Assembly (NCBI GenBank): GCA_963701125.1
Contig: OY969568.1
Coordinates: forward strand, 3,571,108-3,635,107
Length of the DNA: 64,000 nt
Source: an uncultured Actinomycetes bacterium
GTDB lineage: Bacteria > Actinomycetota > Thermoleophilia > Gaiellales > JAICJC01
Direction of reading: 5' to 3'
The translations under genes were made by a program, and so were the position numbers. The notes below the pieces were generated by a model. The model did not search any database. It was not told the DNA's origin and saw only the letters and a list, made by a program, of their open reading frames with translations. Below, in pieces: positions 29,759 to 53,207 of this stretch (within the stretch, counting starts at the first letter, position 1; each line of letters starts with the position of its first letter).

Positions 29759-30844
29759 CTACGCCGGCCCGCGCTCCTGCAGGTAGCGGGTGTTGAAGCC
29801 GTCGAGCAGGGAGTCCTTCTCGGCCAGCACGCCGTGGGTGAAGGCGCGCGAGCGCACGCCGCGCTGCACCCGCTCGCACACGACGTAGTCCTGGTGGGCG
29901 ACGAGCTCGACGAACTCGACGATCTCGGACGGGTCGAAGCCGGGATCGGCGATCGCCTCGGGCCGGAACAGGTAGTCGGTGATGACGGTCGTGTGTCCGG
30001 GCTCGCGTGGCAGCAGCGTGGTCGCGATCGCGCCGGTGCCGGTCACGTCGATGAACATGTTCGGGAACACGGTGCAGCCGTAGAGCGAGGTCGAGTCGTG
30101 CTCGTCGAGCCCCGGCATCACCGGCAGGCTGGACTGGCCGGTGCGCGTGAAGCTCGTCCCGCCGCCCGCGATCGCGACGCCGCCGTCGCCGCGGTGGGCG
30201 TCGTACACCGATCCCTTGCGGAACGCCGGCACGACGGCGACCAGCTCGGGGTGCACCGTCGGGCAATGCAGGCACTCGTTGTAGTTCTCGATCAGGATCT
30301 TCCAGTTGGCCTGCACCTCGTTCACGGTCATATGGCCGCTGCGCAGGTCGGTCAGGTTGAAGCGGGCAAATGAGAGCGGCCCGTCGTGCTGGCCGCCAAG
30401 CCAGGTCTCGAGCGGCTGCGGGTCGGGATCGAGGTGCACGAAGAGGAACCCCTCCCAGACGTCCACCTCGACCGGCCACAGGCCGAGCGCATCGCGGTCG
30501 AGCTCGTCCTTGCCGACGTTGGGGGTGCCGATCAGGCGGCCGTCGAACGAGTATGACCAGGCGTGGTAGGGGCACTTGACGGCGCCCTTCATCCGCCCGG
30601 ACAGCTCGTCGCACAGCCGCGAGCCGCGGTGGCGGCACACGTTGTAGAAGCCGTGCAGCCGGCCGTCCTTGTCGCGCAGGACGATCACGCTCTCGCCCGC
30701 GACGTCGACCGTCATGAAGTCGCCCGCCTCGGCGAGCGCATCGGCGCGGCCGGCGTAGAACCAGTTGCGGGCGAAGATCCGCTCGCGCTCCACCTCGAAC
30801 ACCTCGGCCGCGTGATAGTCGCGGCCGGACAGCGTCTTCATCAT
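29759..30844 (-). CDS. Rieske [2Fe-2S] aromatic-ring-hydroxylating oxygenase alpha subunit-like protein
   Basis: CRHRGSRL...CPYHAWSY Rieske motif, and NYNECLHCPTVHPEL mononuclear-iron region. ATG at 30844. Confidence 0.85.
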   Translation of the reverse strand: MMKTLSGRDYHAAEVFEVERERIFARNWFYAGRADALAEAGDFMTVDVAGESVIVLRDKDGRLHGFYNVCRHRGSRLCDELSGRMKGAVKCPYHAWSYSFDGRLIGTPNVGKDELDRDALGLWPVEVDVWEGFLFVHLDPDPQPLETWLGGQHDGPLSFARFNLTDLRSGHMTVNEVQANWKILIENYNECLHCPTVHPELVAVVPAFRKGSVYDAHRGDGGVAIAGGGTSFTRTGQSSLPVMPGLDEHDSTSLYGCTVFPNMFIDVTGTGAIATTLLPREPGHTTVITDYLFRPEAIADPGFDPSEIVEFVELVAHQDYVVCERVQRGVRSRAFTHGVLAEKDSLLDGFNTRYLQERGPA

Positions 30845-30929
30845 CGGTACCGCCAAAACTGCCTCCTCGTAGCCCGTCGAACCGGCTTCCAGCCTACCAT
30901 TCGGGCCCGTTCCGGCCGATACTGCACCG

Positions 30930-31778
30930 ATGCAGATCGTCCGTCCCCCCGGCGCACAGGATGCGCTCGAGATGGTGCAGGAGCCCCTGCGGGCGAGCGG
31001 CGCGGCGGGTGAGGTCTCGTTCGGGATCCTGACCCGGCTCGTCGCCGAGCCCGACGCGTGGGGGGCCGAGGTGACCATCCTGATGGCGGTCGAGTCGGGC
31101 CGCCCTGCGGCCCTGGTGACGATGACGGGGCCGCATCCGGCGCTGATCGTCGCCTTCGCCGAGCTGCGCACGGAGGTCTACGCGGGGCTCGTCGCGGCGA
31201 TGCTCGACGACGGCCGCCGCCCGAGCGCGGTGAACGGCGCCCGGCAGGCGGCCGAGGCGTTCGCGGCCGCGTTCGGCGCCGCCGGGGCACGGGTGCAGGT
31301 GCGTCGTGACGTGCGCGTGTTCGAGCTTCGGGAGGTGCGCCCGCCGGCGCGGCCGCCGGGGCGGGTGCGGCCCGCGGCGGCTGCCGAGACCGACCTGCTC
31401 GAGCGGTGGACGCTCGCGTTCTTCGCCGACGTGGGGGAGCCGGAGACGCCCGCCGCGGCCGCCCGCACCGTCGCGCACAAGCTGGCGCACGACGATCTGC
31501 TCGTCTGGGAGCGCGACGGCCGCGTCGTCTCGATGGCCGGCGTCGTGCGGCGCACCGCCCGGTCGTCGTCGATCGCGCTGGTCTACACGCCGCCCGAGCT
31601 GCGCGGCAACGGCTATGCCAGCGCGGTCGTCGCGGCGCTCTCCCAGCGCGAGCTCGATGCGGGCCAGGAGTGGTGCTCGCTGCTGGCCGACGTCGCCAAC
31701 CCGACCACGAACCACATCTACGCCGCGATCGGGTACGAGCCGAAGTGCGACATGCGCCACCTGCTGCTCACCTGGTGA
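30930..31778 (+). CDS. GNAT-family N-acetyltransferase
   Basis: C-terminal VYTPPELRGNGYASAVVAALSQRE...NPTTNHIYAAIGYE (acetyl-CoA binding motif A). Confidence 0.7.
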   Translation: MQIVRPPGAQDALEMVQEPLRASGAAGEVSFGILTRLVAEPDAWGAEVTILMAVESGRPAALVTMTGPHPALIVAFAELRTEVYAGLVAAMLDDGRRPSAVNGARQAAEAFAAAFGAAGARVQVRRDVRVFELREVRPPARPPGRVRPAAAAETDLLERWTLAFFADVGEPETPAAAARTVAHKLAHDDLLVWERDGRVVSMAGVVRRTARSSSIALVYTPPELRGNGYASAVVAALSQRELDAGQEWCSLLADVANPTTNHIYAAIGYEPKCDMRHLLLTW

Positions 31779-33595: not shown

Positions 33596-34604
33596 TCAGT
33601 AGGCGGTGTGCATGAGGCTGTGGACGTGGCCGAGCGTCTCGTCGGCGACCGCCTGTGCCCGCTCGCTGCCGGCCCGCAGCACCGAGCGCAGGTGGCCGCG
33701 GTCGGCGAGCAGGGCGCGGCGCCTGGCGCGCACGGCCCGGAAGCGCTCGTTGACCGCATCGGTGACGAGGCGTTTGAGGGCGGCCGAGCCGCCTGTCGCC
33801 GACCGACGCCGCCACCGCCTCCGGCGGCTCGTCGAGGCAGAGCGCGGCCAGCAGCACCAGGTTTGCCACCTCGGGCCGGCGGTCGGGCTCGTAGGTGATG
33901 GCCCGCTCGGCATCGGTCCGGGCCGAGCGGATCAGGCGGGCCGTCTCGTCCTCGCTCGCGCCGATCGCGATCGCATTTCGGCGGCTCTTGCTCATCTTCC
34001 CGCCGTCGACGCCCAGAAGCAGCGGCGCCGACCCGAGCATCGCCTCGGGCTCGGGGAAGAAGGGGCCGTCCGACGGGGCGTAGCGCGCGTTGAACCGCCG
34101 TGCGATCAGCCGCGCGATCTCGACGTGCGGCAGCTGATCGCGGCCGACCGGCACGAGGTTCGCGCGGCAGAACAGGATGTCGGCCGCCTGATGGACGGGG
34201 TAGGTGAACATCAGCGCCGACATCGCCGCCGCGCCGCTCGCGCGCATCTCGTCCTTGACGGTCGGGTTGCGCCGTACCTCGGTGACGCTCACGAGGCTCA
34301 GGAACGGCACCAGCAGCTGGTTGAGCCCACTCACCTGGCTGTGCGCGAAGATCGTCGCCCGGCCGGGGTCGATCCCGACGGCGAGATAGTCGGCCACGAG
34401 CGCGTCGACGTCCTCGGCGAGCCCCGCCGGCGAGTCGCGATCGGTGATCGTCTGGTAGTCGGCGACGACCACGAAGAGCTCGACGCCCTCGTCCTGGAGC
34501 CGGACGCGGTTTTCGAGCGTCCCGAAGTAGTGGCCGAGGTGGAGCGGGCCCGTGGGCCGGTCGCCCGTGAGCACGCGGGGCGTTGTGGGATCGATATGGA
34601 ACAC
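33596..34604 (-). pseudogene. trpS: Tryptophan--tRNA ligase with an apparent single frameshift near 33790-33800
   Basis: HIGH motif (PLHLGHY) and KMSKS are present in ORF 33471..34604. The conserved C-terminus (GGSAALKRLVTDAVNERF...AQAVADETLGHVHSLM) is in ORF 33596..33913, another frame. Confidence 0.85.
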
Positions 34605-34820
34605 GAGAACCTCCTTCAGGTGAGCGGCGGAGCGGCCTCACAGGGGTTCACGTCGATCATGCAGGCGAACCGTCCGAAGACCGGCCCGCCGTGGGTGCAC
34701 GAAGCTACGGGCCGCTCAGAGCGGCCGCCACCAGCACGTGTGCGCGTGCGTGTGCATGTCTCGCACCGTAGCACGGGCGCCGTCACGGCCGCCCGGCCGG
34801 CGGGTGCCTACGCTTGGGGG

Positions 34821-35783
34821 ATGCGACGGCGCGTCGACCTGTGGCTCCTCGGGACGGCGCTCGCGCTCTCATTCGCGACGGGAGTCCTCTCGCTCTGGGT
34901 GAGCGAGCGGCACGCGGGCATCGTCGTTTGGGCGCACGGGGCGAGCGGTCTCGCCGTGGTGCTGCTCGTGTGGAGCAAGGTCGGTGTGATCCGCCGCGGC
35001 CTGCGCCGCCGCTGGCCGGACGTCGGCGCGTCGCTGATCGCCGCGGGATGCGCCGTGGCCCTGCTCGCCTCCGGCCTTGCCCACTCGGCCGGTGTGCGCG
35101 ACCTCGGGCCGCTGACGGCGCAGGGCTGGCACGTCACGTTCGCGCTCGTCCTCGCGCCGCTGCTCGTGGCGCACCTCCTGAGCCGGCCGATCCGGCTACG
35201 CGAGGGCGACCTGACGCGGGGCGCGTTCCTGCGGCTGGCGGCGCTCACCATGGGCGCGGTGGCCGCCAAGCTCGCGTTCGACCGCGTGCTCGGCGCGCCG
35301 CGCGCGGGGACGGGCTCGCTCGAGCAGGCGCAGCCGGCGCCGACGATCTGGCTCGACGACTCCGTGCCGCAGATCGACCCGGGCGCGTGGCGGCTCTCGG
35401 TCGGCGGCGCGCGGCTCGGGCTGGACGACCTCGCCCGTCTGCCGCAGCGCGAGTGGACGGTCGAGCTCGACTGCACGAGCGGGTGGTATGCCCGCAACCG
35501 CTGGCGCGGCGTGCGCGTGTCCGATCTCCCGCTCGGCTCGGCGGCGGGCAGCTCGAGCATCGAGGTGCGCTCGGCGACCGGCTACTCGCGCCGGTTCGAC
35601 CCGTCGGTGGCGGGCGGGCTCATGATCGCCACGCATCTGGACGGCGCGCCGCTCGCCGCCGGCCACGGCGCCCCGGCGAGGCTCGTCGCACCCGGCCGGC
35701 GCGGGTTCTGGTGGGTGAAGTGGGTCACGGCGATCGACCGCAGCTCGAAGCCGGCCTGGTGGCAGTCGCCGTTTCCGCTGTGA
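34821..35783 (+). CDS. Membrane-anchored molybdopterin-dependent oxidoreductase (sulfite-oxidase/YedY-like fold)
   Basis: Four N-terminal TM segments, then the Oxidored_molyb pattern (LDCTSGWYARNRWRGV...GAPARLVAPGRRGFWWVKWV). ATG at 34821. Confidence 0.7.
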   Translation: MRRRVDLWLLGTALALSFATGVLSLWVSERHAGIVVWAHGASGLAVVLLVWSKVGVIRRGLRRRWPDVGASLIAAGCAVALLASGLAHSAGVRDLGPLTAQGWHVTFALVLAPLLVAHLLSRPIRLREGDLTRGAFLRLAALTMGAVAAKLAFDRVLGAPRAGTGSLEQAQPAPTIWLDDSVPQIDPGAWRLSVGGARLGLDDLARLPQREWTVELDCTSGWYARNRWRGVRVSDLPLGSAAGSSSIEVRSATGYSRRFDPSVAGGLMIATHLDGAPLAAGHGAPARLVAPGRRGFWWVKWVTAIDRSSKPAWWQSPFPL

Positions 35784-35995
35784 ACGACTCGCAGTACCAT
35801 GCACGCGTGCAGGACGCCCGGCTCACCGCCGCCGCGACCGCGGCGCTCGACGAGGCGATCGAACGCATGGGCGCGGATGTGTGCATCTGGTCGGTCGACC
35901 TTCTGATCGACCAGATCGCAGCGGACATCGCCACCGACCCGGCCGAGGAGGAGCATCTCCGCGCGGTCCTGCGCGCGCGCCAGGGCCTGGCCTGA
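35780..35995 (+). CDS. Small hypothetical protein (GTGA-coupled to the upstream gene)
   Basis: The in-frame GTG overlaps the upstream TGA. 71 aa, acidic, balanced composition. Confidence 0.3.
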   Translation: MNDSQYHARVQDARLTAAATAALDEAIERMGADVCIWSVDLLIDQIAADIATDPAEEEHLRAVLRARQGLA

Positions 35996-36014
35996 CGCGC
36001 CCGCCAGGGCCTGG

Positions 36015-36665
36015 GTGACGCGGGCCGGTGTAGCATCGGGTGCGATGGGCGACGATCTGCGACCGGACATCGACGGGTGGGCGCGTGCGCACGGCTTCGA
36101 CCCGTCGGACGACCAGATCGGCGGGACGACTCCGCTCCTGCGCCTGGGCATGCTGGACACGACGGATGCCACCTACCGCGGGACGATCGACGGGCAGGAC
36201 GCCATCCTGGCGGAGTTCTCGGTCGGCTCGCCCGACTGGTCGGAGGCGTTCACCGCCTCGGGCATCCGCTCGAGCGGCTTCACGCTGATCCTGATCTTCG
36301 TCGACGCCTCGCGGTGGCCGCGCCTCACCGTCCATCCGAGCCGCTTCAACGACCATGACTGGGCCCGTCGGCTGCTCGGCGCCGACCACCGCGTGCACAC
36401 GCTCTCGGAGCGGATGGACGCGCGGTATCGCGTCGTGGCGTCGGCCGGCATCGGCGCCGACCGGCTCGGCCGGCTCTTCACCTCCGAGCTGGTCGAGTGG
36501 TGGCTCGCGCAGGAGCCCGAGGTGATCGTGGACATCGAGGATCACGGAGACGGGGCGGGCTTCCTCACGGTCGCCCAGCTCGGCATCGGCATCGGCGACG
36601 AGGCGCTCACGACCCTGCAGGCACAGGCGTCGCACCTGCTCGCCGCATTCTCCGCCGTCACGTAG
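36015..36665 (+). CDS. Hypothetical protein
   Basis: 216-aa ORF with normal composition. A possible ATG start lies at 36045. Confidence 0.45.
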   Translation: MTRAGVASGAMGDDLRPDIDGWARAHGFDPSDDQIGGTTPLLRLGMLDTTDATYRGTIDGQDAILAEFSVGSPDWSEAFTASGIRSSGFTLILIFVDASRWPRLTVHPSRFNDHDWARRLLGADHRVHTLSERMDARYRVVASAGIGADRLGRLFTSELVEWWLAQEPEVIVDIEDHGDGAGFLTVAQLGIGIGDEALTTLQAQASHLLAAFSAVT

Positions 36666-36679
36666 TCGTCACATAGCCG

Positions 36680-38158
36680 TCACGGCCGGCGTTCGGGGTC
36701 TGACCCCAGTGCGGCCTCGAGCGGCGAGAGGTCGGCCAGCGGCGGCTCGCCCTCGCGCCGCCGCGGCGCGTGGCTGCGGACGAGGTCATATGCGCGGCGC
36801 GTGCCCTCGCCGAGCTCGCCCGCGCGGTCGCGCAGGTCGACGGCCTGCGCCGCCAGGTAGAGCTCGACCGCGGCGACGTAGGTGCCGAGGCGGGTCATCT
36901 CCTCGACCCGGCGGGCGGCCACGGGAGTGGGGATGACGCGATCCTCGATGCCCTCGGCGGTGGTCGACGTCGACAGGTCGAGCGTCGCCGGCATCGCCAG
37001 CAGGCGCGCCTCGGCCGCGGCGGCGCTCGCGCCGTAGACCACGATGCCGAGGCCGTCCGCGCTGGCCGAGTCGTCGTCGCGCAGGCCGGTCGGCAGTCCG
37101 CTGAACCCGGAGTGGACGAGCTTGTTCGCCCGCTCGCACGAGGCCGTGATCACGTGCGCGAGCGCGATCCGCACGTAGTCGAGGGTGATCCCGTAGGGGA
37201 CGGAATCGAAGTTCCCGTTCGAGAGCGCGCGGCCGTCCGGCGTGATGCTCGGGTTGTCGTGCGACGAGACGAGCTCGGCCTCGACGATCTCGCGGGCGTG
37301 GCGCAGAGCGTTGCGGGCAGCTGCGTGCGTCTGGGGAACGACCCTCATCGTCAGCGGATCCTGCAGGTGCCGGTGCAGTGTCCCGCCGAGCAGGCTGCCG
37401 CCGCGCAGGAGCGCCTGCAGCCGCTCGATCTCGTCGGCGATCCCGGGCACCGGGCGCGCGTCGGCGACGGCCGGGTCGAACGCCTGCACGTTGCCCAGCA
37501 TGCCCTCGAACGTGAGCGCGGCCGCCGCGTCGAAGCGGTCGAGCAGCGTGCCGGCACCGATCAGGCCGAGCGCCGACCAGCCGAGCGAGAACCCGTTCGC
37601 GTTCACGAAGGCGAGCGCCTCCTTGGCCGTCGGCTCCCACGGCGTGAGGCCGAGCCGCTCGAGCTCGCCGGACCATGTGCCCTCGCCGGTCAGGGCGGCC
37701 GCGAGGTCGGCCAGCGGACCGAGGTCTGACTGACCCAGCGAGCCCGTCGTGCGCACGTGCGGGACGAGCCCGGCGTTCAGCGCCGCGATCAGGTGATCGG
37801 CCAGCAGCGGCCGCACGCCGGAGCGCCCGCGCGCGAAGCCGGCCACCTGGGCGAGCATGACGGCGCGCACGACCCGCTCGGGCACGTCGGGGCCCGTCCC
37901 GGTGCGGTGCGAGAGCAGCATGAGCCGGTTGAACGCGAGCTGCTCGTCGCGCTTGACGGCCACGCGCTTGAGCGCGCCGACGCCGGTCGTCAGGCCGTAC
38001 ACGCGCTCGCCGCGGGCAAGGAGCGCGTCGGTCACCTCGCGGGCGCGCTCGATGCGCGCACGGGCGGCGTCGGCCAGCTCCACGCGCCGGCCGCGCACGG
38101 CGACGTCGGCCACGTCCTCGAGCGTGAGGCTCGCGTCGAGCAGGAGCGCGCCGGTCAC
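36680..38158 (-). CDS. HAL/PAL-fold (aromatic amino acid lyase family) protein lacking the Ala-Ser-Gly MIO triad
   Basis: Family-wide similarity (YGLTTGVGAL..., GSLGQSDLGPLADL, QDPLTMRVVPQ, SHDNP, NGNFDS). Canonical G-A-S-G-D-L is replaced by G-Q-S-D-L. The GTG start overlaps the upstream TGA. Confidence 0.75.
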   Translation of the reverse strand: MTGALLLDASLTLEDVADVAVRGRRVELADAARARIERAREVTDALLARGERVYGLTTGVGALKRVAVKRDEQLAFNRLMLLSHRTGTGPDVPERVVRAVMLAQVAGFARGRSGVRPLLADHLIAALNAGLVPHVRTTGSLGQSDLGPLADLAAALTGEGTWSGELERLGLTPWEPTAKEALAFVNANGFSLGWSALGLIGAGTLLDRFDAAAALTFEGMLGNVQAFDPAVADARPVPGIADEIERLQALLRGGSLLGGTLHRHLQDPLTMRVVPQTHAAARNALRHAREIVEAELVSSHDNPSITPDGRALSNGNFDSVPYGITLDYVRIALAHVITASCERANKLVHSGFSGLPTGLRDDDSASADGLGIVVYGASAAAAEARLLAMPATLDLSTSTTAEGIEDRVIPTPVAARRVEEMTRLGTYVAAVELYLAAQAVDLRDRAGELGEGTRRAYDLVRSHAPRRREGEPPLADLSPLEAALGSDPERRP

Positions 38159-39257
38159 GATGTCCGGAAGAACGGCTCGCCGAGCGCCTCGACCCGCACG
38201 GTCACGCCGAGGCCCGGCGCGGCCGGCGCGGCGCGGCGGCCGCCCTGCGGCTCGGGCAGGCCGTCGGCGTTTTGCGATCGTGACCCAGTCGGTGAAGTCG
38301 ACGGTGTGGGCGCGGTTGGGCTCGGGGGTCGAGTGCGACAGGTGCAGCATGGCGGCGGTGTCGATCGTAGCCCCGCCGGTGTCCTCGACCGTCACGGTCA
38401 TGCCGAGCTCGACCGCCGCGTCGCGCATGGCCGCCGCCCGCGTGACCCCGCCGACACGCGCGAGCTTGATCGTGACGCCGTCGGCTCCCGCCTCGCGCCG
38501 GGCGCGCACGAGCTCCGGGAGCGACACGATCGACTCGTCGAGCACGAGCGGATGGCTGCAGTGGGCGCGCAGCGCCGCGCACTCCTCGAGGGTCGCGCAC
38601 GGCTGCTCGAGCGTGTGGTCGATGTTCTCGGTCGCGCGCATGAACCGCCGCGCGGCCGACGTCGTCCAGCCGCCGTTTGCGTCGGCGAAGAGGACGATGT
38701 CCGGGCCGACGGCGTCACGCACGGCGCCGAGCCGGGCCGCGTCTGCGGCCGGGTCGCCGCCGACCTTGATCTGCAGCCGCCGGTAGCCGGCGCCGACGTG
38801 GCTGCGTGCGCGCTCCACGACATCGTCGAGCGTCGCCGGGCGAGATCGAGCGGTAGAGGTCGACCGCCGCCCCGAAACGGCCGCCGAGGGCCTCGCACAG
38901 CGGCTGGCCGTGCAGGCGCGCGGTCGCGTCCCAGCAGGCCATGTCGAGCGCCGACTTGACGTACGGCTGGCCGCGCATGGCGGCGTCCATGAGCTGCACG
39001 ATCCGGCGCGGCTGGCGGGGGTCTGCGCCCACGACGTGCGGGGCGAGCAGGACGATGCCGGCGCGGGCGCCCTCGGCGAACGCGTCGGCGTAGAAGGCGC
39101 CGAGCGGTGCCATCTCGCCCCAGCCGGTCACACCCTCGTCGGTGTCCACCGCGACGACGAGCGAGTCGAAGCCGTCGGTCGCGCCGCCCGACGTCGAGTA
39201 GGGGCCGGCCGCGAACGGCTGCAGCTGGCGGTATGCGCGGACGCCGCTGATGCGCAT
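38155..39257 (-). pseudogene. Enolase-superfamily (MR/MLE) enzyme interrupted by two +1 frameshifts
   Basis: The N-domain (VTGWGEM...KSALDMACWD) is in ORF 38715..39536, and the barrel (QIKVGG, DANGGW, LEQP, LDES, IKLARVGG) in ORF 36680..38818. The C-terminus (NADGLPEP...APGLGVTVRVEAL) is in a third frame. Breaks lie near 38845 and 38270. Confidence 0.8.
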
Positions 39258-39267
39258 CGAGGCGCGA

Positions 39268-40704
39268 CTAGTCCCCGAGCTCCGCGCGGCGGCGCACGAC
39301 GTAGGCATCGAGCTGCGCCCGCACGTCGGGATCGAGCGGCGGCTGCTCGTAGGACTCGATCGTCGCGCGCCAGATCTCGCCCGCCCGCTCGGCCGCGTCG
39401 CGCGAGCCCTTCGACTTCCACCGCTCGAAGTTCTCGGTCGAGGACAGGAGCGGCCGGTAGAAGCAGGTGCGGAACCGCTCCAGCGTGTGCGCGGCGCCCA
39501 GGAAGTGCCCGCCGTGGCCGACCTCCTCATGCGCACCGTAGGCCAGGCTCGCCTCGTCCACCTCGAGCGGCGTGAACTCCTCCTGCAGCATCCGCAGCAT
39601 CTCGATGTCGATGATGAACTTCTCGTAGGAGGCCACGAGCCCGGACTCGAGCCAGCCGGCCGCGTGCTCGACGTAGTTGGCGCCCGCCAGGAACGCGGGC
39701 AGCATCGTGTTCAGCCCCTCGTAGGCCGCCTGCGCGTCAGGCGTCTGGCTCGACGTGAGGAAGCCGCCGCCGGCCCGCCACGGCACGCCGAAGCGGCGCG
39801 CCACCTGGCCCGAGCAGAGCAGGCCCATCGCCGACTCGGGGCCGCCGAACCCGGGCGATCCCGACTGCATGTCGGTGTGGGACAGGAACGAGCCGAGCAC
39901 GACGGGCGCGCCCGGGCGCACGAGCTGCGCGAGCGCCAGGCCGGCCAGCGCCTCGGCCGTCTGCTGCACAAGCGCCGCCGGCACCGATGCCGGCGACATC
40001 GCGCCCATGAGCAGGAACGGCGTGATGATCACCGCCTGCCCGGCCTCGGCGTAGATCGTCATCGCCTCGAGCATGCGGGTGTCGTAGCGAAGCGGCGAGT
40101 TGGCGTTGACGACGCCGAACATGCGCACCTCGCCGTCGGCGGGGCCGCCGTGCAGGATGTCGGTCATCGCGACCGAGTCCGCCGCGGCGTCCTGCGAGAT
40201 GACCGCGCCCATGTACGGCTTGTCCGTGAGCGTCTGCACGGCGAGCAGCATGTCGAGGTGACGCGAGTCGAGCGGGCGGTCGCCCGGCTCGCAGCAGAGG
40301 CCGCCCGGCGTGTCCAGCTGGTCGAACGACTGGCTCAGCCGGCAGAACTGCTCGAAGTCGTGCATCGTCGCCTCGCGGCGGTCCGCGCCCTCACGCACGA
40401 ACGGCGGCCCCTGGGTGGGGGCGAAGAACATGTGCCGGCCGCCCACGTGCACGCTCCGATCCGGGTTGCGCGCGACCAGCGGGAACTCCCGCGGCGTCGT
40501 CGCGACCTGCTCGAGCACCCAGTCGGGGTCGAAGCGCACGACCGAGTCCTCGACCCGCTGCCCCGCGGCGCGGAAGCGATCGAGCGACTCGTCGTGCAGG
40601 AACTCGATCCCGATGTCGGACAGGAGCCGCCGCCAGCCGCGCTCGAGCACGGCCATCGCATCCTCCGAGAGGATGTCGTAGCGGGGCATGTCGTTTCGGA
40701 ACAT
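39268..40704 (-). CDS. MttB-superfamily methyltransferase, non-pyrrolysine type (quaternary-amine/betaine methyltransferase-like)
   Basis: 478 aa with an uninterrupted frame and no internal TAG. Similar to trimethylamine methyltransferase family proteins along its whole length (from memory). Its start overlaps the kinase stop. Confidence 0.75.
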   Translation of the reverse strand: MFRNDMPRYDILSEDAMAVLERGWRRLLSDIGIEFLHDESLDRFRAAGQRVEDSVVRFDPDWVLEQVATTPREFPLVARNPDRSVHVGGRHMFFAPTQGPPFVREGADRREATMHDFEQFCRLSQSFDQLDTPGGLCCEPGDRPLDSRHLDMLLAVQTLTDKPYMGAVISQDAAADSVAMTDILHGGPADGEVRMFGVVNANSPLRYDTRMLEAMTIYAEAGQAVIITPFLLMGAMSPASVPAALVQQTAEALAGLALAQLVRPGAPVVLGSFLSHTDMQSGSPGFGGPESAMGLLCSGQVARRFGVPWRAGGGFLTSSQTPDAQAAYEGLNTMLPAFLAGANYVEHAAGWLESGLVASYEKFIIDIEMLRMLQEEFTPLEVDEASLAYGAHEEVGHGGHFLGAAHTLERFRTCFYRPLLSSTENFERWKSKGSRDAAERAGEIWRATIESYEQPPLDPDVRAQLDAYVVRRRAELGD

Positions 40705-42095
40705 CAGCGCACCGGCCCGCGGCCGGCGGCGGGGAGGGAGATGCCGAAGGTGGTGGATCCCGGCTGCGATCGCACCGTGATCGCACCTCGGTGGCCGATG
40801 ACGATCCGCCGCGCGATGTCGAGGCCGAGGCCGCTGCCGTCGCCGACCGACTTCGTCGTGAAGAAGGGCTCGAAGATGCGCGACTGGACCTCGGCGGGAA
40901 TGCCGGGGCCGTCGTCTGCGATCTCGACCAGGATGTCGTCGCCGAGCGCCCGGGTCGTGATCGTGATCGTGCCCCTGGGCCGGCCGGCGAGGGCGTCGAG
41001 GGCGTTCGTGAGCAGGTTCGTCCACACCTGGTTCAGCTCGGAGCCGTGCACGGTCACGGGCGGAAGGGTGCGGTCATAGCTGCGCTCGATCTTCACGGGC
41101 TCGTGCTTGATGCGGAACTTCAGCATGGTCAGCGTGCTGTCCAGGCCGTCGTGCACATCGACGTCCTCGACCGCGGCCCGGTCCATGTGCGTGTAGTCCT
41201 TGATCGCGGCCACGAGCTCGGAGATCCGCGCGGTCGACTCGTGCAGCTCGCCGACGAGCGTGTGGGCGGTGAGCGACGCCGCCACCCACTCGAGGGCCGG
41301 GCCGGTCGCCGGCCCCGCGGCCGTCGCCACCTGCTCGAGCCACTCCTCGTTCAGGCAGGCCCGGGCCAGCGGCTCGGCCAGCCGCCAGCCCTCCTGGCCC
41401 ATGTCGTCGAGCAGGACGGCCAGCCGGTCTTCGCGGTCGGCCGAGGCGACCGAGCCGTCGCCCTCGCCGGCGCGCGCGAGCGCGGACTGCTGCAGCGCGA
41501 CCAGCCGGGCGGCGTCCTCGCGCTCGACGCCGCTCGACACGAAATGGTGCACCGTGTCCTGCAGCGTCGCGAGCGCCTCACCGAGCTCGGTGGCCGTCCG
41601 CCGTGCCGCCGCCGCCGGGTTGTTCAGCTCGTGGGCGAGGCCGGCCGAGAGCGTGCCGAGCGCCGCGAGCTTCTCCTGCTGGCGCACGAGCGCGTCGGCC
41701 GCCTGGGCGATCGGCGCGATCAGGCGCACGGCGGTGCGCATCGCGCTCGGCGTTTCGCGCAGGAACGATCGGAACGTGGCGGCGTCCCAGGTCAGGAGCC
41801 GCACGTCGGTCGTCGCGTGGCCGCTCGCGAGCAGGGGGTCGCCGGTGAGCAGGTTGGCGGCGCCCGCGTAGGTGGGCGCCTCGCGCTCGCTCAGGAACAC
41901 GTCGACGCCGTTGATGCAGCGCGTCCACTCGACGCGGCCTTCGACGACGACCGAGAAGCGCTCGAGCTTCGTGCCTTCGGTGAAGAGCGCCTCGCCGATC
42001 CCGAGGTGCGCCTCCTGTCCTTGCGCGGCGAACGCGGTCAGCGCGTCGGGATCGACGCCCTCGAAGAGGTCGAGCTGCTCGAGCACCTCGATCAC
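40704..42095 (-). CDS. Sensor histidine kinase with an N-terminal CAP/cNMP-binding-like domain
   Basis: CAP beta-barrel-like N-terminus, H-box LAHELNNP, N box WTNLLTNALDA, G boxes DDGPGI and GSGLGL. No TM segment. Confidence 0.8.
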   Translation of the reverse strand: MIEVLEQLDLFEGVDPDALTAFAAQGQEAHLGIGEALFTEGTKLERFSVVVEGRVEWTRCINGVDVFLSEREAPTYAGAANLLTGDPLLASGHATTDVRLLTWDAATFRSFLRETPSAMRTAVRLIAPIAQAADALVRQQEKLAALGTLSAGLAHELNNPAAAARRTATELGEALATLQDTVHHFVSSGVEREDAARLVALQQSALARAGEGDGSVASADREDRLAVLLDDMGQEGWRLAEPLARACLNEEWLEQVATAAGPATGPALEWVAASLTAHTLVGELHESTARISELVAAIKDYTHMDRAAVEDVDVHDGLDSTLTMLKFRIKHEPVKIERSYDRTLPPVTVHGSELNQVWTNLLTNALDALAGRPRGTITITTRALGDDILVEIADDGPGIPAEVQSRIFEPFFTTKSVGDGSGLGLDIARRIVIGHRGAITVRSQPGSTTFGISLPAAGRGPVR

Positions 42096-43777
42096 ACGGC
42101 CGCCGCCAGGTACTCGTGCACGAAGTGCACCGCCATCGAGCCCTCGCCGACGGCCGAGGCGACCCGCTTCATCGACTCGCTGCGCACGTCGCCGGCCACG
42201 AACACGCCCGCCATGCTCGTCTCGAGCAGGTAGGGGTCGCGGTCGAGGCGCCAGCGCGGCCGCACCTCCTCGCGCAGCACCTCGGCGCCCGCGAGCACGA
42301 AGCCGCGCCCGTCGCGGGCGACGCCGTCGGGCAGCCAGTCGGTCTGCGGGCGGGCGCCGATGAAGACGAACATGGCCGCGAGTTCGACCTCGTCCTCGGC
42401 GCCGGTGACCGTGTCGCGCACCGTGACCCGCTCGAGCGAGTCGCTGCCGTGGGCCGCGGTGACCTCGCCGTTCAGGCGCACGTCGATGTTGGGCGTGGCC
42501 TCGATGGTGTCGATCAGGTAGCGCGACATGCTCTTCGCAAGGCTCGTGCCGCGGTAGAGCAGCGTCACCCGCTGGGCGTAGCCGGCGAAGTAGATCGCCG
42601 CCTGGCCGGCCGAGTTGGCGCCGCCCACGACGACGACGTGCTCGTCGCGGCACGACACGCCCTCGCTGCGCGAGCCGCCGTAGTAGACGCCGCGGCCCGA
42701 GAGCGCCTCGATGCCGGGGGCGTCGAGCCGGCGGTAGTCCACGCCGGTGGCGATGATGATGGCCTTGGCGCCCAGCTGGTCGTGCCCGGCCAGGTGCACG
42801 AGCCGCGCCGGGCCGCGCTCGTCGATCGCCGTCACCTCCTGCACGGTCAGGAGCTCGGCGCCGAAGCGGGTCGCCTGCGCCGTCGCACGGCGGGCGAGGT
42901 CGGCGCCGGAGAGCCCCACCGGGAAGCCGAGGTAGTTCTCGATCCGCGAGCTCTGACCGGCCTGGCCGCCGGGCGCCTCGCGCTCGATCAGCGCGGTGCG
43001 CAGGCCCTCGGACGCGCCGTACACCGCCGCGGCGAGGCCGGCCGGGCCGCCGCCCACGATCACGAGGTCGTAGAACTCGAGCTCGGCGCGGCGGCGGACA
43101 CCGGCCCGCTCGGCCAGCTCCGCCACCGTCGGCCCGTGCAGCACGCCGCCGTCGGGGAAGAGCACGAGCGGCAGCGCCGCCGACCCGTCGGCCGCCGCCA
43201 GCAGGCGTTGCCCCTCGTCGTCGCGCTCGACGTCGAGCCAGCGGTAGGGCACCTGGTTTCGGGCCAGGAAGTCGCGGGCGTCATGTGACTCGCGCGACCA
43301 CCGGTGGCCGACCACCTGGATGCGGTCGGCGTCGGCGGGCGCGTCGGCCTTCCAGGCGTCGAGCAGGTCGTCGAGCACCGGGTAGAGCTGCTCGTCGGGC
43401 GGATCCCACGGCTTCAGCAGATAGTGGTCGAGCGAGACGCGGTTGATCGCGTCGATGGCCGCCTGGGTGTCGGCATACGCGGTGAGGAGCACGCGTTTGG
43501 CCTCGGGGGCGACGCGCATCGCCTCCTCGAGGAACTCGACGCCCGACATCTCCGGCATGCGCTGGTCGGCGAGCAGGAGCGCGACCGCGGCACCGCGCAG
43601 CTTTGACTCGCGGACGGCTGCGAGCGCCGCCTCGCCGCTCTCGGCGCGCAGGATGCGATAGTCGCGCCCGTAGCGCCGGCGCAGGTCGCGCTCGACCGCC
43701 CGCGCGACCGACGGCTCGTCGTCGACGGCGAGCAGCACGGGGCGTGCGCCCTCGCGCGTCTCGGGAACGCTGCTCAC
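42092..43777 (-). CDS. Fused response-regulator receiver / thioredoxin-fold linker / thioredoxin-reductase-like flavoprotein
   Basis: Receiver (LLAVDDEP, LLLADQRMPEMSG, LLTAY, KPW), two Rossmann motifs (VIVGGGPAGL, VVVGGANSAG) and GVFVAGDV. The whole protein has a single Cys and no CxxC. Confidence 0.85.
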   Translation of the reverse strand: MSSVPETREGARPVLLAVDDEPSVARAVERDLRRRYGRDYRILRAESGEAALAAVRESKLRGAAVALLLADQRMPEMSGVEFLEEAMRVAPEAKRVLLTAYADTQAAIDAINRVSLDHYLLKPWDPPDEQLYPVLDDLLDAWKADAPADADRIQVVGHRWSRESHDARDFLARNQVPYRWLDVERDDEGQRLLAAADGSAALPLVLFPDGGVLHGPTVAELAERAGVRRRAELEFYDLVIVGGGPAGLAAAVYGASEGLRTALIEREAPGGQAGQSSRIENYLGFPVGLSGADLARRATAQATRFGAELLTVQEVTAIDERGPARLVHLAGHDQLGAKAIIIATGVDYRRLDAPGIEALSGRGVYYGGSRSEGVSCRDEHVVVVGGANSAGQAAIYFAGYAQRVTLLYRGTSLAKSMSRYLIDTIEATPNIDVRLNGEVTAAHGSDSLERVTVRDTVTGAEDEVELAAMFVFIGARPQTDWLPDGVARDGRGFVLAGAEVLREEVRPRWRLDRDPYLLETSMAGVFVAGDVRSESMKRVASAVGEGSMAVHFVHEYLAAAV

Positions 43778-44055
43778 GCCCCTCCCGCGACGGTGAAGAC
43801 CACCTCGTCGGTGTAGCACCAGAACCAGTCCTCGCCTGGCTCGGCCGACCGGATCACGACGTGGCCGCTCGAGTTGACGTGCGCGGTCGCGTGCCGGTTG
43901 GGCGAGGAGTCGCAGCAGCCGATGTGGCCGCAGGTCGTGCACATCCGCAGGTGCAGCCAGCGCGAGCCCATCGCCAGGCACTCCTCGCACCCGGCGATCG
44001 TCTCCGGAAGCTCGGTCACCTCGATCTGATCCATATGGGTGCAGGTTTCCGCCAC
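43774..44055 (-). CDS. UBP-type zinc-finger protein
   Basis: CTHMD...CEECL...WLHLRMCTTCGHIGCCDSSPNRHATAH...GH pattern. Its TGA stop overlaps the GTG start of the downstream RR/TrxR-like gene (GTGA). Confidence 0.8.
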   Translation of the reverse strand: MAETCTHMDQIEVTELPETIAGCEECLAMGSRWLHLRMCTTCGHIGCCDSSPNRHATAHVNSSGHVVIRSAEPGEDWFWCYTDEVVFTVAGGA

Positions 44056-44141
44056 GTGGGCCCCCCTTGTCGGCGCGGTCGAATTCTTCGACCGATGCCT
44101 ACCACAACCGCGGCGGGGATGCGCGGCGGATCCCGGCGTTT

Positions 44142-44178
44142 GGGGACTGTCCCCGGTTTGCGGGGACAGTCCCCGGTT
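44142..44178. repeat. Doublet of the 13-bp palindrome: GGGGACTGTCCCCggtt tgc GGGGACAGTCCCCggtt
   Basis: Read directly. It lies between the MCP 3' end and the zf-UBP operon start. Confidence 0.9.
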
Positions 44179-44188
44179 CTCGGGATGC

Positions 44189-46001: not shown

Positions 46002-46973
46002 TTAGGCGACGAGGCGCGCAGCCGCCCGCGTGCGGGCGTCATCCGGCGCGAACGAGGCGTCGAGCGCCGCGCGGTTGCAGCGGGCCAGGTCGGCATCCGA
46101 CCAGGCGAACGTGGCCCGCAGCCGCGCGTACTCGCGCTCGAGGTCGATGTCGGTGGTCGCGCGGCAGTCGGTGTTCACACCGAGCGACACGCCCCGCCGG
46201 TAGAGCGCGTCGATCGGGTGATCGGCGTAGGTGTCGCACAGGTCGGTCTGGACGTTGGACGACGGGCACAGCTCGAGGTGGATGCCCGTCTCGACCAGGT
46301 GGTCGACCAGCGCCGGATCCTCGATGCTGCGCGCGCCGTGGCCGATGCGCTCGGGCCGCAGCCGGCGCAGCGTCTCCCACACGCTCGCGGGCCCCGACCC
46401 CTCGCCGGCGTGGGCGGTGCGGCGCAGGCCGTGCTCCTCGGCGAGGCGGAACGCGGCCTCGTGCGCGTCGAGCGGATAGCCGGCCTCGTCACCGGCGATG
46501 TCGAGCGCGACCACGAGCGATCCCCGGAACCGGTCGACGAGCTCCACGGTCTCGAGACTCTGGGCGGCGGCGAAGTGGCGCAGCGTGCACAGGATCAGGC
46601 GGGCATCGACGCCGCTTGCGGCGATCGCCCGACCGACCGCAGCATCGACGATCTCGACGACCTCGGTCGCGGTCAGGTCGCCCTCGGTGTGCAGGTGGGG
46701 CGCGAACCGGGCCTCGGCATAGACGACGTTGTCGCGCGCGAGCTGGTCGAACAGGTCGTCGACCATCACCTCGAGGCCGCGCCTGTCCTGCATCAGCGCC
46801 ACGATGCGCGGCGGCCGCAGCAGGAAGTCGGCCAGGTTGGTGCACTTGGCGGGGGCGACGAAGTCGGTTCGGTACTGCTCGAGCGTCACCTCGGGCCGCA
46901 GCCGGGCGACGGCGGCATGGCTCGCGGCACAGTCGAGGTGGAGGTGCAGCTCGACCTTGGGCAGCCCCGGCAT
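46002..46973 (-). CDS. add: Adenosine deaminase
   Basis: [10 protein letters not shown], ...HAGE..., and [12 protein letters not shown] (SxNTDD-like). Confidence 0.85.
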
Positions 46974-47008
46974 CGGCGGATCGTAGTCCGGCGATACTGT
47001 CGGGCGGC

Positions 47009-47698: not shown

Positions 47699-47731
47699 CG
47701 GCCGCGCAGCCGGGAAGCGGGACGGAGAGGC

Positions 47732-47765
47732 GGGGACTGTCCCCGATCGATCGGGGACAGTCCCC
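47732..47765. repeat. Doublet of the 13-bp palindrome forming a perfect 34-bp palindrome (GGGGACTGTCCCC gatcgatc GGGGACAGTCCCC)
   Basis: Read directly. It lies between the convergent HAD and ahcY 3' ends and is a possible bidirectional terminator. Confidence 0.9.
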
Positions 47766-47787
47766 AGCGCTTCGCGCTTGCCGCCGC

Positions 47788-49242
<1,455 letters not shown>

Positions 49243-49264
49243 GAAGGCTCCAGAAGGGTCGGAA

Positions 49265-50206: not shown

Positions 50207-50222
50207 CGGGCGCCGCGCCTGG

Positions 50223-53197: not shown

Positions 53198-53207
53198 GGA
53201 GCCCGGA

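What the first reader, a model, noticed from the sequence alone, without database searches (positions are those of the whole stretch)
37712..37747. HAL/PAL-fold protein in which the MIO-forming Ala-Ser-Gly triad is replaced by Gln-Ser with a one-residue deletion
Translating the minus strand gives T-T-G-S-L-G-Q-S-D-L-G-P-L-A-D. Canonical histidine and phenylalanine ammonia-lyases have G-S-(V/L)-G-A-S-G-D-L-A-P-L at this position. The autocatalytic MIO electrophile cannot form without the A-S-G triad, so this is not an ordinary ammonia-lyase or aminomutase. The rest of the fold signature is retained (YGLTTGVGAL, QDP..MR, SHDNP, NGNF). MIO-less relatives are known to act on substrates with a better leaving group, such as trimethylammonium. 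That matches the adjacent MttB-family gene.
Basis: partly seen in the sequence, partly recalled or inferred. Interest (0 to 1): 0.7.

Follow-up and report, generated by a model that had tools for sequence, protein, structure and literature searches.

The report
MIO-less histidine-lyase relative in betaine operon
This soil actinobacterial gene encodes a histidine-ammonia-lyase look-alike that cannot make the family's built-in cofactor. It belongs to the recently recognised cofactor-free branch that cuts trimethylamine off amino-acid betaines, and here it is tied to a methyl-harvesting MttB enzyme, a pairing I did not find described.

Summary
Window 37712-37747 (-) encodes TGSLGQSDLGPL inside an intact 492-aa PF00221 gene (36680-38158, -). 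HAL's G-A-S-G-D is G-Q-S-D here, one residue shorter.

It is a family trait, not an error. About 115 of 120 homologues, down to 47% identity, carry G-Q-[S/A/G]-D. The gene is under purifying selection (dN/dS 0.10-0.18).

Among 144 aligned PF00221 sequences (mostly 50%-identity representatives), the short loop goes together with Leu at HAL Tyr280 (QDPL) and x-N for HAL N-G-T. All ASG proteins form one clade. The characterised MIO-free trimethylammonia-lyases share these marks: T. denticola ergothionase (GEGD) and S. woodyi histidine-betaine lyase (GLSD). Ergothionase is the top structural hit.

The catalytic Tyr and the carboxylate and imidazole ligands are kept. Ergothionase's thiolate-binding Lys384 is Tyr.

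The gene ends a translationally coupled chain: kinase, non-pyrrolysine MttB, HpbD-like enolase (frameshifted here), lyase. MttB lies upstream in 29 of 30 orthologous loci.

Best reading: MIO-independent elimination of a methylated amine from a histidine-type betaine, most likely hercynine to urocanate plus trimethylamine. The substrate and MttB's role are inferred, not shown. It is a new variant of a known kind, of moderate interest.

The parts
36680..38158 (-). MIO-less PF00221 lyase gene. It encodes 492 aa and starts with a GTG that overlaps the TGA stop of the upstream gene (GTGA).
   Evidence: Translation. Pfam E 9.5e-118. Start/stop overlap read. AF2 model with pLDDT 93.9. Top Foldseek hit is ergothionase 6s7j.
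37712..37747 (-). The flagged loop, TGSLGQSDLGPL. It is the counterpart of HAL GSVGASGDLAPL and is one residue shorter.
   Evidence: Family conservation.
37727..37732 (-). Codons for Gln143-Ser144, which replace the Ala-Ser-Gly MIO triad.
   Evidence: Coordinates. Alignment.
37997..37999 (-). Tyr54, the equivalent of HAL Tyr53 and ergothionase Tyr54. It is the presumed acceptor of the beta-proton.
   Evidence: Invariant.
37343..37363 (-). QDPLTMR. Gln266 and Arg272 are the carboxylate ligands. Leu269 stands where HAL has Tyr280.
   Evidence: Leu or Ile is found here in 95 of 102 short-loop proteins, against Tyr in 41 of 42 MIO proteins.
37907..37909 (-). His84, the equivalent of HAL His83, an imidazole ligand.
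   Evidence: Role.
36944..36946 (-). Glu405, the equivalent of HAL Glu414, an imidazole ligand.
   Evidence: Role.
37034..37036 (-). Tyr375, at the position of ergothionase Lys384 (the thiolate binder). S. woodyi HB-lyase has Asn here and SO_3299 has Gln.
38155..39257 (-). Enolase-superfamily gene of the HpbD / cis-3-hydroxy-L-proline dehydratase group. In this window it is split by two single-base insertions, near 38836 and 38273.
   Evidence: Pfam MR_MLE_N and MR_MLE_C fall in different frames. DNA alignment with four relatives that have one intact 366-369 aa ORF. NCBIfam and PDB matches.
39268..40704 (-). Non-pyrrolysine MttB-family methyltransferase gene, 478 aa. Its ATG overlaps the stop of the upstream kinase gene (TGATG).
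   Evidence: Pfam E 2e-181. NCBIfam 248 bits against a cut-off of 525 for the Pyl enzyme. PDB hits 4yyc, 2qne and 9yce. Overlap read.
40704..42095 (-). Histidine kinase with a cNMP-binding domain. Its GTG start overlaps the stop of the upstream response-regulator/TrxR-like gene (GTGA).
42092..43990 (-). Fusion of a response-regulator receiver with a pyridine-nucleotide-disulfide oxidoreductase. It is the first gene of the chain.
   Evidence: It is conserved upstream in the closest relatives, L002-L009 and L028.

Best explanation
The gene encodes a cofactor-free (MIO-less) member of the HAL/PAL fold, of the trimethylammonia-lyase type.

Proposed mechanism (inferred by homology, not shown). The substrate is an N-alpha-methylated amino-acid betaine with a histidine-like side chain. 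Its carboxylate is held by Gln266, Arg272 and Asn302. Its ring is held by His84 and Glu405. Tyr54 removes the beta-proton. The permanently cationic (tri)methylammonium group then leaves without any electrophilic cofactor, giving the trans-enoic acid plus a methylated amine.

My best single guess for the reaction is hercynine (histidine betaine) to urocanate plus trimethylamine.

The gene is the last in a translationally coupled chain with a non-pyrrolysine MttB-family methyltransferase and, where intact, an HpbD-like enolase-superfamily enzyme. All three have closest characterised relatives that act on amino-acid betaines, so together they look like a betaine-catabolic module. MttB probably passes methyl groups from the same or a related betaine to a corrinoid protein encoded elsewhere in the genome.

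Shown here:
- the MIO triad is absent;
- the other catalytic residues are conserved;
- the protein shares the sequence marks of the MIO-less branch and lies outside the MIO clade;
- the linkage to MttB is conserved across genomes.

Inferred:
- the identity of the substrate;
- release of trimethylamine;
- the role of MttB.
For: Loop and motifs
- The loop is G-Q-S-D instead of G-A-S-G-D.
- The family-wide pattern is G-Q-[S/A/G]-D, so neither the Ser nor the Gly needed for MIO is conserved.
- In the 144-sequence alignment (mostly representatives at 50% identity, plus selected homologues, the window protein and P. putida HAL), the short loop co-occurs with two other marks. Leu or Ile stands at HAL Tyr280 in 95 of 102 short-loop sequences, against Tyr in 41 of 42 MIO sequences. 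Asn stands at the window Asn188 column in 88 of 102, against N-G-T in 37 of 42.
- In a neighbour-joining tree all 42 ASG/SSG proteins form one clade and the window protein lies outside it.

Shared marks with characterised MIO-less lyases
- The ergothionase family has G-E-[G/A]-D-I, QDPLSFR and YGLNRGVG.
- S. woodyi HB-lyase has GLSDI and QDALSFR.
- The literature states that these enzymes need no MIO because trimethylamine is a good leaving group.

Structure
- The AF2 model is confident, pLDDT 93.9.
- Its best PDB match by E-value is ergothionase 6s7j, E 5e-32, TM 0.90.

Catalytic and binding residues
- Tyr54, His84, Gln266, Arg272, Asn302 and Glu405 are invariant or nearly so.
- The three-residue pattern His/Glu/Tyr (at HAL His83, HAL Glu414 and ergothionase Lys384) is the one found in 36 of 42 true HAL-type representatives. 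This argues for an unmodified imidazole ring.
- The gene is under purifying selection, dN/dS 0.10-0.18.

Genomic context
- MttB lies upstream on the same strand in 29 of 30 orthologous loci, either directly adjacent or with the enolase gene between.
- Stop and start codons overlap along the chain.
- The enolase's best matches are the cis-3-hydroxy-L-proline dehydratase model and related solved structures.
- The MttB keeps the carboxylate ligands of glycine-betaine MtgB (Arg312, His348) but has lost its aromatic box: Tyr97 is Gln and Phe356 is Gly (residues from PMC13080624).
- Related MAGs carry full corrinoid methyl-transfer systems beside a 71-72% identical MttB paralogue.
- Sister clades of the lyase sit beside a bona fide urocanase, BHMT-like and MetE-like methyltransferases, or the formaldehyde-activating enzyme Fae.
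Against: - No biochemical data exist for this clade.
- The protein is only 25-30% identical to any characterised trimethylammonia-lyase. It is no closer to them by sequence score than to true HALs.
- No urocanate-pathway gene lies within 10 kb in the window or in the orthologous loci.
- A lyase and a methyltransferase that both attack the same trimethylammonium group are not an obvious linear pathway. A non-Pyl MttB with carboxylate ligands is unlikely to consume free trimethylamine.
- The enolase's nearest characterised relatives act on proline-type substrates, not histidine derivatives.
- The tree is neighbour-joining without bootstrap support and is midpoint rooted.
Confidence: 0.6

Rival explanations
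1. It is an ergothionase: ergothioneine to thiourocanate plus trimethylamine.
For: - Ergothionase 6s7j is the top Foldseek hit and the second-best PDB sequence hit.
- The two share the short loop, QDPL and the GVG motif.
- Actinobacteria and soil fungi make ergothioneine (abstracts).
- A sulfite-oxidase-like molybdoenzyme gene lies downstream.
Against: - Lys384 is reported as essential for binding the thiolate and for ergothionase activity. It is Tyr375 here. It is Tyr, His, Asn or Val across the family, whereas all 10 HEK sequences of the ergothionase clade in the tree, including T. denticola ergothionase (P0121), keep Lys.
- The window protein is in a different clade from ergothionases.
- No thiourocanate-hydratase-like gene is nearby.
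Confidence: 0.1
2. The lyase acts after MttB. MttB removes one methyl group from the betaine, and the lyase then eliminates dimethylamine from the resulting N,N-dimethyl amino acid (for example N-alpha,N-alpha-dimethylhistidine to urocanate plus dimethylamine).
For: - It would explain why a methyltransferase and a lyase form a conserved two-gene unit.
- Gln and Ser in the loop could hydrogen-bond a protonated tertiary amine. This is inference only.
- Formaldehyde-handling genes cluster with related lyases.
Against: - The literature on characterised MIO-less lyases reports a strict requirement for the trimethylammonium group.
- There is no direct evidence for this order of reactions.
Confidence: 0.12
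3. It is a MIO-less lyase for a betaine that does not contain imidazole, for example proline, hydroxyproline or aromatic amino-acid betaines, as the HpbD-like enolase neighbour might suggest.
For: - The enolase's best matches are the cis-3-hydroxy-L-proline dehydratase model and related solved structures.
- The MIO-less radiation is very diverse in its specificity positions, with patterns such as REK, HDR and QER. Many substrates must therefore exist.
Against: - His84 and Glu405, the imidazole ligands of HAL and of the histidine-betaine lyases, are conserved. The His/Glu/Tyr pattern equals that of true HALs.
- The enolase gene is absent from about a third of orthologous loci and is frameshifted here. 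It is therefore dispensable for the lyase.
Confidence: 0.1
4. It is an ordinary MIO-dependent histidine ammonia-lyase whose triad was garbled by an assembly error, or it forms another electrophile from Gln-Ser-Asp.
For: - The neighbouring enolase gene does carry two single-base indels, so this assembly or lineage is not free of frameshifts.
Against: - An in-frame three-base loss that recurs in more than 100 independent homologues cannot be an error.
- Ser is replaced by Ala or Gly in relatives.
- Tyr280 is also lost.
- The protein falls below the NCBIfam HAL cut-offs.
Confidence: 0.02
5. It is a catalytically dead relic or a binding protein.
For: - The prosthetic group is lost.
Against: - All other catalytic and substrate-binding residues are invariant.
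- dN/dS is 0.10-0.18.
- Characterised relatives with the same loss are efficient enzymes.
Confidence: 0.03

Closest known systems
Ergothionase (ergothioneine trimethylammonia-lyase), Treponema denticola, PDB 6s7j
   Same: - Same PF00221 fold; it is the top Foldseek hit (TM 0.90).
- No Ala-Ser-Gly triad, and a loop one residue shorter than in HAL (GEGD against GQSD).
- QDPL in place of QDPY, a GVG motif, and Asn at the x-N position.
- The catalytic Tyr, the Gln/Arg/Asn carboxylate ligands and the His/Glu imidazole ligands are all conserved.
   Different: - Only 30% identical, and in a separate clade.
- The thiolate-binding Lys384 is Tyr here.
- The loop has Gln-Ser rather than Glu-Gly/Ala.
- The genomic context is different: MttB plus an enolase.
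Histidine betaine trimethylammonia-lyase Swoo_3913 (Shewanella woodyi) and N(pi)-methyl-histidine-betaine lyase SO_3299 (S. oneidensis)
   Same: - MIO-less, with a short loop (GLSD in Swoo_3913).
- Leu at the Tyr280 position, and the His/Glu imidazole ligands are kept.
- A neutral residue stands at the Lys384 position: Asn or Gln there, Tyr here.
- The predicted chemistry is the same.
   Different: - About 25% identity.
- The Shewanella enzymes are periplasmic and coupled to flavocytochrome c enoate reductases for anaerobic respiration.
- The window protein has no signal-peptide-like N-terminus (my reading of the sequence). It sits in a presumably cytoplasmic operon with MttB.
Histidine ammonia-lyase HutH (P. 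putida 1b8f/1gkj; T. acidophilum 7tqr)
   Same: - Same fold and length.
- Tyr53, His83, Gln277, Arg283, Asn313, Phe329 and Glu414 equivalents are all present.
- Best PDB sequence score is to 7tqr, 202 bits.
   Different: - No MIO triad.
- Tyr280 is Leu, and N-G-T is N-A-N.
- Below the NCBIfam HutH cut-off (318 bits against 539).
- Outside the MIO clade.
Non-pyrrolysine MttB-superfamily quaternary-amine methyltransferases (MtgB, MtpB, MtcB, MtyB). This is the closest known family for the operon partner, not for the lyase.
   Same: - Full-length PF06253 match with no in-frame amber codon.
- 363-409 bits to 4yyc, 2qne and 9yce.
- The carboxylate ligands Arg312 and His348 of MtgB are conserved.
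   Different: - The aromatic box of MtgB is lost: Tyr97 is Gln and Phe356 is Gly.
- No corrinoid protein, methyl-THF methyltransferase or activase gene is adjacent, unlike the 71-72% identical paralogue in related MAGs.
- Paired with a lyase.

Membership tests
MIO-dependent aromatic amino acid ammonia-lyases/aminomutases (HAL, PAL, TAL, PAM, TAM) | PF00221 fold | tested here: met
   Pfam E 9.5e-118, full length. AF2 model has TM 0.88-0.92 to HAL, TAM and PAM structures.
MIO-dependent aromatic amino acid ammonia-lyases/aminomutases (HAL, PAL, TAL, PAM, TAM) | Ala/Ser-Ser-Gly triad that cyclises to MIO | tested here: not met
   The loop is G-Q-S-D, one residue shorter. In relatives the dipeptide is Q-S, Q-A or Q-G.
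MIO-dependent aromatic amino acid ammonia-lyases/aminomutases (HAL, PAL, TAL, PAM, TAM) | Tyr280 equivalent (QDxYSxR), conserved in MIO enzymes | tested here: not met
   Leu269 (QDPLTMR). 41 of 42 MIO-type representatives have Tyr.
MIO-dependent aromatic amino acid ammonia-lyases/aminomutases (HAL, PAL, TAL, PAM, TAM) | Reaches the curated HutH/HAL model cut-off | tested here: not met
   TIGR01225 318 bits against 539. NF006871 334 bits against 524.
MIO-dependent aromatic amino acid ammonia-lyases/aminomutases (HAL, PAL, TAL, PAM, TAM) | MIO absorbance and sensitivity to nucleophiles | not testable with these tools
   Needs purified protein.
MIO-less trimethylammonia-lyases (ergothionase / histidine-betaine lyase class) | PF00221 fold lacking Ala-Ser-Gly, with the loop shortened by one residue | tested here: met
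   Same gap as in 6s7j and Swoo_3913. Ergothionase family pattern is G-E-[G/A]-D.
MIO-less trimethylammonia-lyases (ergothionase / histidine-betaine lyase class) | Catalytic Tyr base, Gln/Arg/Asn carboxylate ligands and His/Glu imidazole ligands | tested here: met
   Tyr54, Gln266, Arg272, Asn302, His84 and Glu405.
MIO-less trimethylammonia-lyases (ergothionase / histidine-betaine lyase class) | Groups with MIO-less rather than MIO proteins in a phylogeny | tested here: met
   In the NJ tree all 42 ASG/SSG proteins form one clade and the window protein is outside it, among short-loop proteins. There is no bootstrap support and no PAL outgroup.
MIO-less trimethylammonia-lyases (ergothionase / histidine-betaine lyase class) | Releases trimethylamine from an N-alpha-trimethyl amino acid | not testable with these tools
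   Needs an enzyme assay.
Ergothionase sensu stricto | Lys384 (T. denticola numbering) for binding the thiolate | tested here: not met
   Tyr375 aligns with Lys384. The Lys is reported as essential.
Pyrrolysine-containing trimethylamine methyltransferase MttB (operon partner) | In-frame UAG (Pyl) and a score above the equivalog cut-off | tested here: not met
   The ORF is uninterrupted and covers profile positions 23-500. TIGR02369 248 bits against 525.

The most novel reading that the evidence does not exclude
The conserved MttB-lyase gene pair of Thermoleophilia may be a previously undescribed two-enzyme route for amino-acid betaines. In it, a corrinoid-dependent non-Pyl MttB and a MIO-free lyase act on the same molecule. 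One version: one methyl group of hercynine is salvaged to the C1 pool, and the lyase then eliminates dimethylamine. Another version: the pair handles a betaine not yet known as a substrate for either family.

More broadly, the short-loop/QDPL proteins form a large and largely uncharted radiation (about 100 of the top 150 representatives at 50% identity). It contains several specificity classes that have no characterised member, with His83/Glu414/Lys384-position patterns such as REK, HDR and QER.
Probability: 0.2. Interest if true: 0.65.

Novelty: new variant of a known kind. Interest (0 to 1): 0.45.

Why it matters
MIO-free lyases of the HAL fold are a young enzyme class. Ergothionase was the first, and histidine-betaine lyases were described only in 2025-26 preprints. 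All characterised members come from gut, oral or marine bacteria.

This finding adds three things.
- A soil actinobacterial (Gaiellales/Thermoleophilia) clade with its own loop signature (G-Q-S-D) and its own specificity residue (Tyr at the Lys384 position).
- Simple sequence rules that separate MIO-less from MIO enzymes: the loop length, Leu at the Tyr280 position, and N-x-N in place of N-G-T.
- A link to an MttB-family methyltransferase and an HpbD-like enolase in one operon.

If the substrate is hercynine or a relative, these abundant soil bacteria would be a source of trimethylamine and a sink for fungal and actinobacterial histidine betaines.

The finding also warns that thousands of database entries named 'histidine ammonia-lyase' are probably not ammonia-lyases.

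Tried and rejected
- My first translation of 37700-37760 was in the wrong frame. It was corrected.
- My 'enoN' tblastn query was accidentally out of frame. Its hits in related loci are artefacts of DNA similarity. I replaced them with ORF maps and a DNA alignment.
- My GC3-based gene caller sometimes chose the antisense frame: cluster c7 is the antisense of the lyase and c25 the antisense of the enolase. I interpreted the output with that in mind.
- Literature searches for MIO-less or MIO-independent enzymes, and for MttB together with hercynine or ergothioneine, found nothing beyond the three trimethylammonia-lyase papers.
- The promoter and terminator scan of 35800-44400 found nothing. That scan is not suited to high-GC actinobacteria.
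- I could not obtain the SO_3057, SO_3299 or Burkholderia ergothionase sequences, so they are not placed in the tree.
- The Swoo_3913 sequence was taken from an OCR'd supplement and may contain small errors.
- NCBIfam gave no match to any ergothionase or trimethylammonia-lyase model.
- I considered a sequencing error or a frameshift as the origin of the shortened loop and rejected it.
- I considered a fusion of the enolase with the lyase, because the two share one long stop-free frame of 816 codons. I rejected it because relatives show two separate genes overlapping at GTGA.
Full report
**Observation.** The minus strand of 37712-37747 encodes TGSLGQSDLGPL. It lies within VRTTGSLGQSDLGPLADLAAAL.

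The surrounding stop-free frame (36680-39127) is 816 codons long. It contains two things: the C-terminal barrel of an enolase-superfamily protein, and a complete PF00221 'aromatic amino acid lyase' domain (E 9.5e-118, profile 1-465 of 466).

Comparison with relatives shows that these are two genes. The lyase starts at the GTG at 38158, which overlaps the TGA stop of the enolase gene (GTGA). It ends at 36680 and encodes 492 aa.

A four-way alignment places a one-residue gap exactly in the Ala-Ser-Gly triad:
- P. putida HAL has G-S-V-G-A-S-G-D-L.
- The window protein has G-S-L-G-Q-S-D-L.
- T. denticola ergothionase has S-S-I-G-E-G-D-I.
- S. woodyi histidine-betaine lyase has G-S-V-G-L-S-D-I.

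**Not an artefact.** 115 of the 120 best database homologues (down to 47% identity) matched the loop pattern, and nearly all of those (112) carry G-Q-[S/A/G]-D.

The position after Gln varies among Ser, Ala and Gly, and the Gly of the triad is gone. Neither residue that MIO formation needs is therefore conserved.

The gene is under purifying selection: dN/dS is 0.10 against a relative that is 93% identical in DNA, and 0.18 against one that is 88% identical in protein.

The window comes from a Gaiellales/Thermoleophilia soil lineage. The closest locus is a Gaiellales MAG with 97% protein identity.

**Where it sits in the fold family.** A search of 1.84 billion representatives found 1109 clusters with E below 1e-30. 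I aligned 144 sequences: most of the top 150 representatives, selected homologues, the window protein and P. putida HAL. Of these, 102 have the shortened loop and 42 have A/S-S-G.

Three characters go together:
- The short loop G-x-[S/A/G]-D. The commonest form is G-A-S-D, that is, ASG minus Gly.
- Leu or Ile at the HAL Tyr280 position: 95 of 102 short-loop sequences, against Tyr in 41 of 42 MIO proteins.
- Asn at the window Asn188 column: 88 of 102, against N-G-T in 37 of 42.

In a neighbour-joining tree all 42 MIO proteins form one clade. Three secondary losers (P0304, P0371 and P0374, which have a still shorter G-Y-L loop) are nested inside it. The window protein lies outside, in a Gln-loop group that is distinct from the ergothionase clade. 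The tree has no bootstrap support and no outgroup.

NCBIfam places the protein well below the HAL cut-offs: 318-334 bits against 524-539.

The AF2 model is confident (pLDDT 93.9, pTM 0.93). Its best PDB match by E-value is ergothionase 6s7j (5e-32, TM 0.90), with HAL close behind.

**What is known.** Ergothionase lacks MIO. Two 2025-26 preprints describe three further MIO-less enzymes: histidine-betaine lyase Swoo_3913, ergothionase SO_3057 and N(pi)-methyl-histidine-betaine lyase SO_3299.

All of them remove trimethylamine. A conserved Tyr takes the beta-proton, Gln/Arg/Asn bind the carboxylate, and His/Glu bind the imidazole nitrogens. Lys384 is needed for the ergothioneine thiolate and is replaced by Asn or Gln in the sulfur-free specialists.

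In the window protein the equivalents are Tyr54, Gln266, Arg272, Asn302, His84 and Glu405. All are invariant or nearly so in its family.

The Lys384 position is Tyr375. The resulting His/Glu/Tyr pattern is the one seen in 36 of 42 true HAL-type representatives. This favours an unmodified imidazole ring and argues against ergothioneine.

Identity to the characterised enzymes is low: 30% to ergothionase, 25% to Swoo_3913 and 31% to P. putida HAL.

**Context.** Five minus-strand genes are chained by overlapping or nearly abutting stop and start codons:
- a response-regulator/TrxR-like fusion (42092-43990);
- a cNMP-binding histidine kinase (40704-42095, GTGA overlap);
- MttB (39268-40704, TGATG overlap);
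- the enolase gene (38155-39257, 10-nt gap);
- the lyase.

Among 31 loci whose lyase is at least 65% identical, 29 of the 30 with enough upstream sequence have MttB upstream on the same strand. Twenty have the enolase gene in between. Most of the others have MttB directly adjacent, with gaps of 9-167 nt. In four more distant loci (43-47% identity) MttB lies just downstream.

The MttB has no in-frame amber codon and scores 248 bits against 525 for the pyrrolysine enzyme. Compared with glycine-betaine MtgB, it keeps the carboxylate ligands Arg312 and His348 but has Gln for Tyr97 and Gly for Phe356 (residues from PMC13080624). This suggests a carboxylated but different, probably bulkier, quaternary amine.

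No corrinoid protein is adjacent. However, a 71-72% identical paralogue in related MAGs sits beside an IclR regulator, a corrinoid protein, a pterin-binding methyltransferase, a RACo-type activase and MTHFR. Aerobic bacteria are also known to use corrinoid partners encoded elsewhere (PMC12478193).

The enolase's best matches are the NCBIfam cis-3-hydroxy-L-proline dehydratase model (345 bits against 500) and PDB 4mgg, 2pmq, 4h2h and 4e8g. From memory, those last entries are hydroxyproline-betaine epimerase (HpbD) structures.

All three genes therefore have nearest characterised relatives that act on amino-acid betaines.

Sister clades of the lyase have other informative neighbours:
- in Streptomyces and Pseudonocardia: a bona fide urocanase (917 bits against a cut-off of 375), a GntR regulator, a 3-hydroxyacyl-CoA-dehydrogenase-like protein and a cysteine-dioxygenase-like protein;
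- in a second clade: MetE-like and BHMT-like methyltransferases;
- in a third clade: Fae, a Zn-ADH, the enolase and MttB.

**Mechanism proposed.** The reaction is a MIO-independent beta-elimination. Tyr54 abstracts the beta-proton of an N-alpha-methylated histidine-type betaine, held by the residues above, and the quaternary ammonium group leaves unaided.

My best single guess is hercynine to urocanate plus trimethylamine.

The absence of MIO, the conservation of the remaining catalytic residues, the shared marks of the MIO-less branch and the MttB linkage are shown. The substrate, the released amine and the role of MttB are inferred.

The unexplained point is why a methyltransferase and a lyase that both target a trimethylammonium group form a conserved pair. 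A sequential route is a live alternative: demethylation first, then elimination of dimethylamine. It conflicts with the reported strict trimethyl requirement of the known enzymes.

**Verdict.** The protein is not a HAL. It is a new, uncharacterised clade of the known MIO-less trimethylammonia-lyase kind, in a new operon context. Interest is moderate.

Noticed in passing
window 38155-39257 (-), insertions near 38836 and 38273: The enolase-superfamily gene between MttB and the lyase is broken by two single-base insertions (CCCGG and AAAA contexts). Four related genomes have one intact 366-369 aa ORF. With the frameshifts corrected, dN/dS is 0.23-0.26, against 0.16 between intact orthologues. This is either a recent pseudogene or an assembly error. 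The gene is absent from about a third of orthologous loci.
   Followed up: yes
window 40704-43990 (-): A response-regulator receiver fused to a thioredoxin-reductase-like flavoprotein, and a histidine kinase with a cNMP-binding domain, are translationally coupled to the MttB-enolase-lyase genes through GTGA and TGATG overlaps. They are conserved only in the closest relatives (L002-L009, L028).
   Followed up: partly
window 46002-53299 (-): A cluster of methyl-cycle genes lies just upstream: adenosine deaminase, S-adenosylhomocysteine hydrolase, a PfkB-family kinase, and a 614-aa fusion of a homocysteine S-methyltransferase domain with a class-I SAM methyltransferase domain. It may be connected with the disposal of methyl groups from MttB.
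   Followed up: partly
window 29759-31171 (-): A Rieske oxygenase alpha subunit whose best NCBIfam match is the glycine-betaine monooxygenase GbcA (191 bits against a cut-off of 670). It is another possible betaine-demethylating enzyme, about 6 kb from the lyase.
   Followed up: partly
window 33606-35783 (+) and 36015-36665 (+): Two genes converge on the lyase. One is a 725-aa ORF with a molybdopterin-oxidoreductase (sulfite-oxidase-like) domain only at its C-terminus; it differs from L001 by two 1-nt indels at 34644 and 34676. The other is a conserved 216-aa ORF with no Pfam or NCBIfam match.
   Followed up: no
L081-L083 (related Actinomycetes MAGs): A 71-72% identical MttB paralogue sits in a complete corrinoid methyl-transfer cluster: IclR regulator, B12-binding protein, Pterin_bind methyltransferase, RACo activase, MTHFR and DUF1638. 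Downstream are an aminotransferase and a 2-hydroxyacid dehydrogenase.
   Followed up: partly
L033-L035, L037, L039, L042, L065 (Streptomyces, Pseudonocardia, Streptosporangiaceae, Solirubrobacteraceae): A sister clade of the lyase (about 47-50% identity; G-Q-A-D, QDPLAFK, D-S-P) lies next to some or all of a true urocanase, a GntR regulator, a 3-hydroxyacyl-CoA-dehydrogenase-like protein and a cysteine-dioxygenase-like protein. L033 and L035 also show a second HAL-like match (35-36% identity) a few kb away.
   Followed up: partly
proteins P0304, P0371, P0374: Three representatives nested inside the MIO clade have a different, even shorter loop (G-S-V-G-Y-L) together with QD[AG]L. They look like an independent loss of MIO.
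   Followed up: no
proteins P0101 (674 aa) and P0242 (1121 aa): Lyases of the G-Q-S-D type occur fused to extra domains. P0101 carries an EAL domain (PF00563).
   Followed up: no
table of representatives: Within the short-loop radiation, large groups have Arg at the HAL His83 position and Lys at the ergothionase Lys384 position (the REK pattern, 14 representatives). Others show HDR or QER. These imply substrate classes with no characterised member.
   Followed up: no
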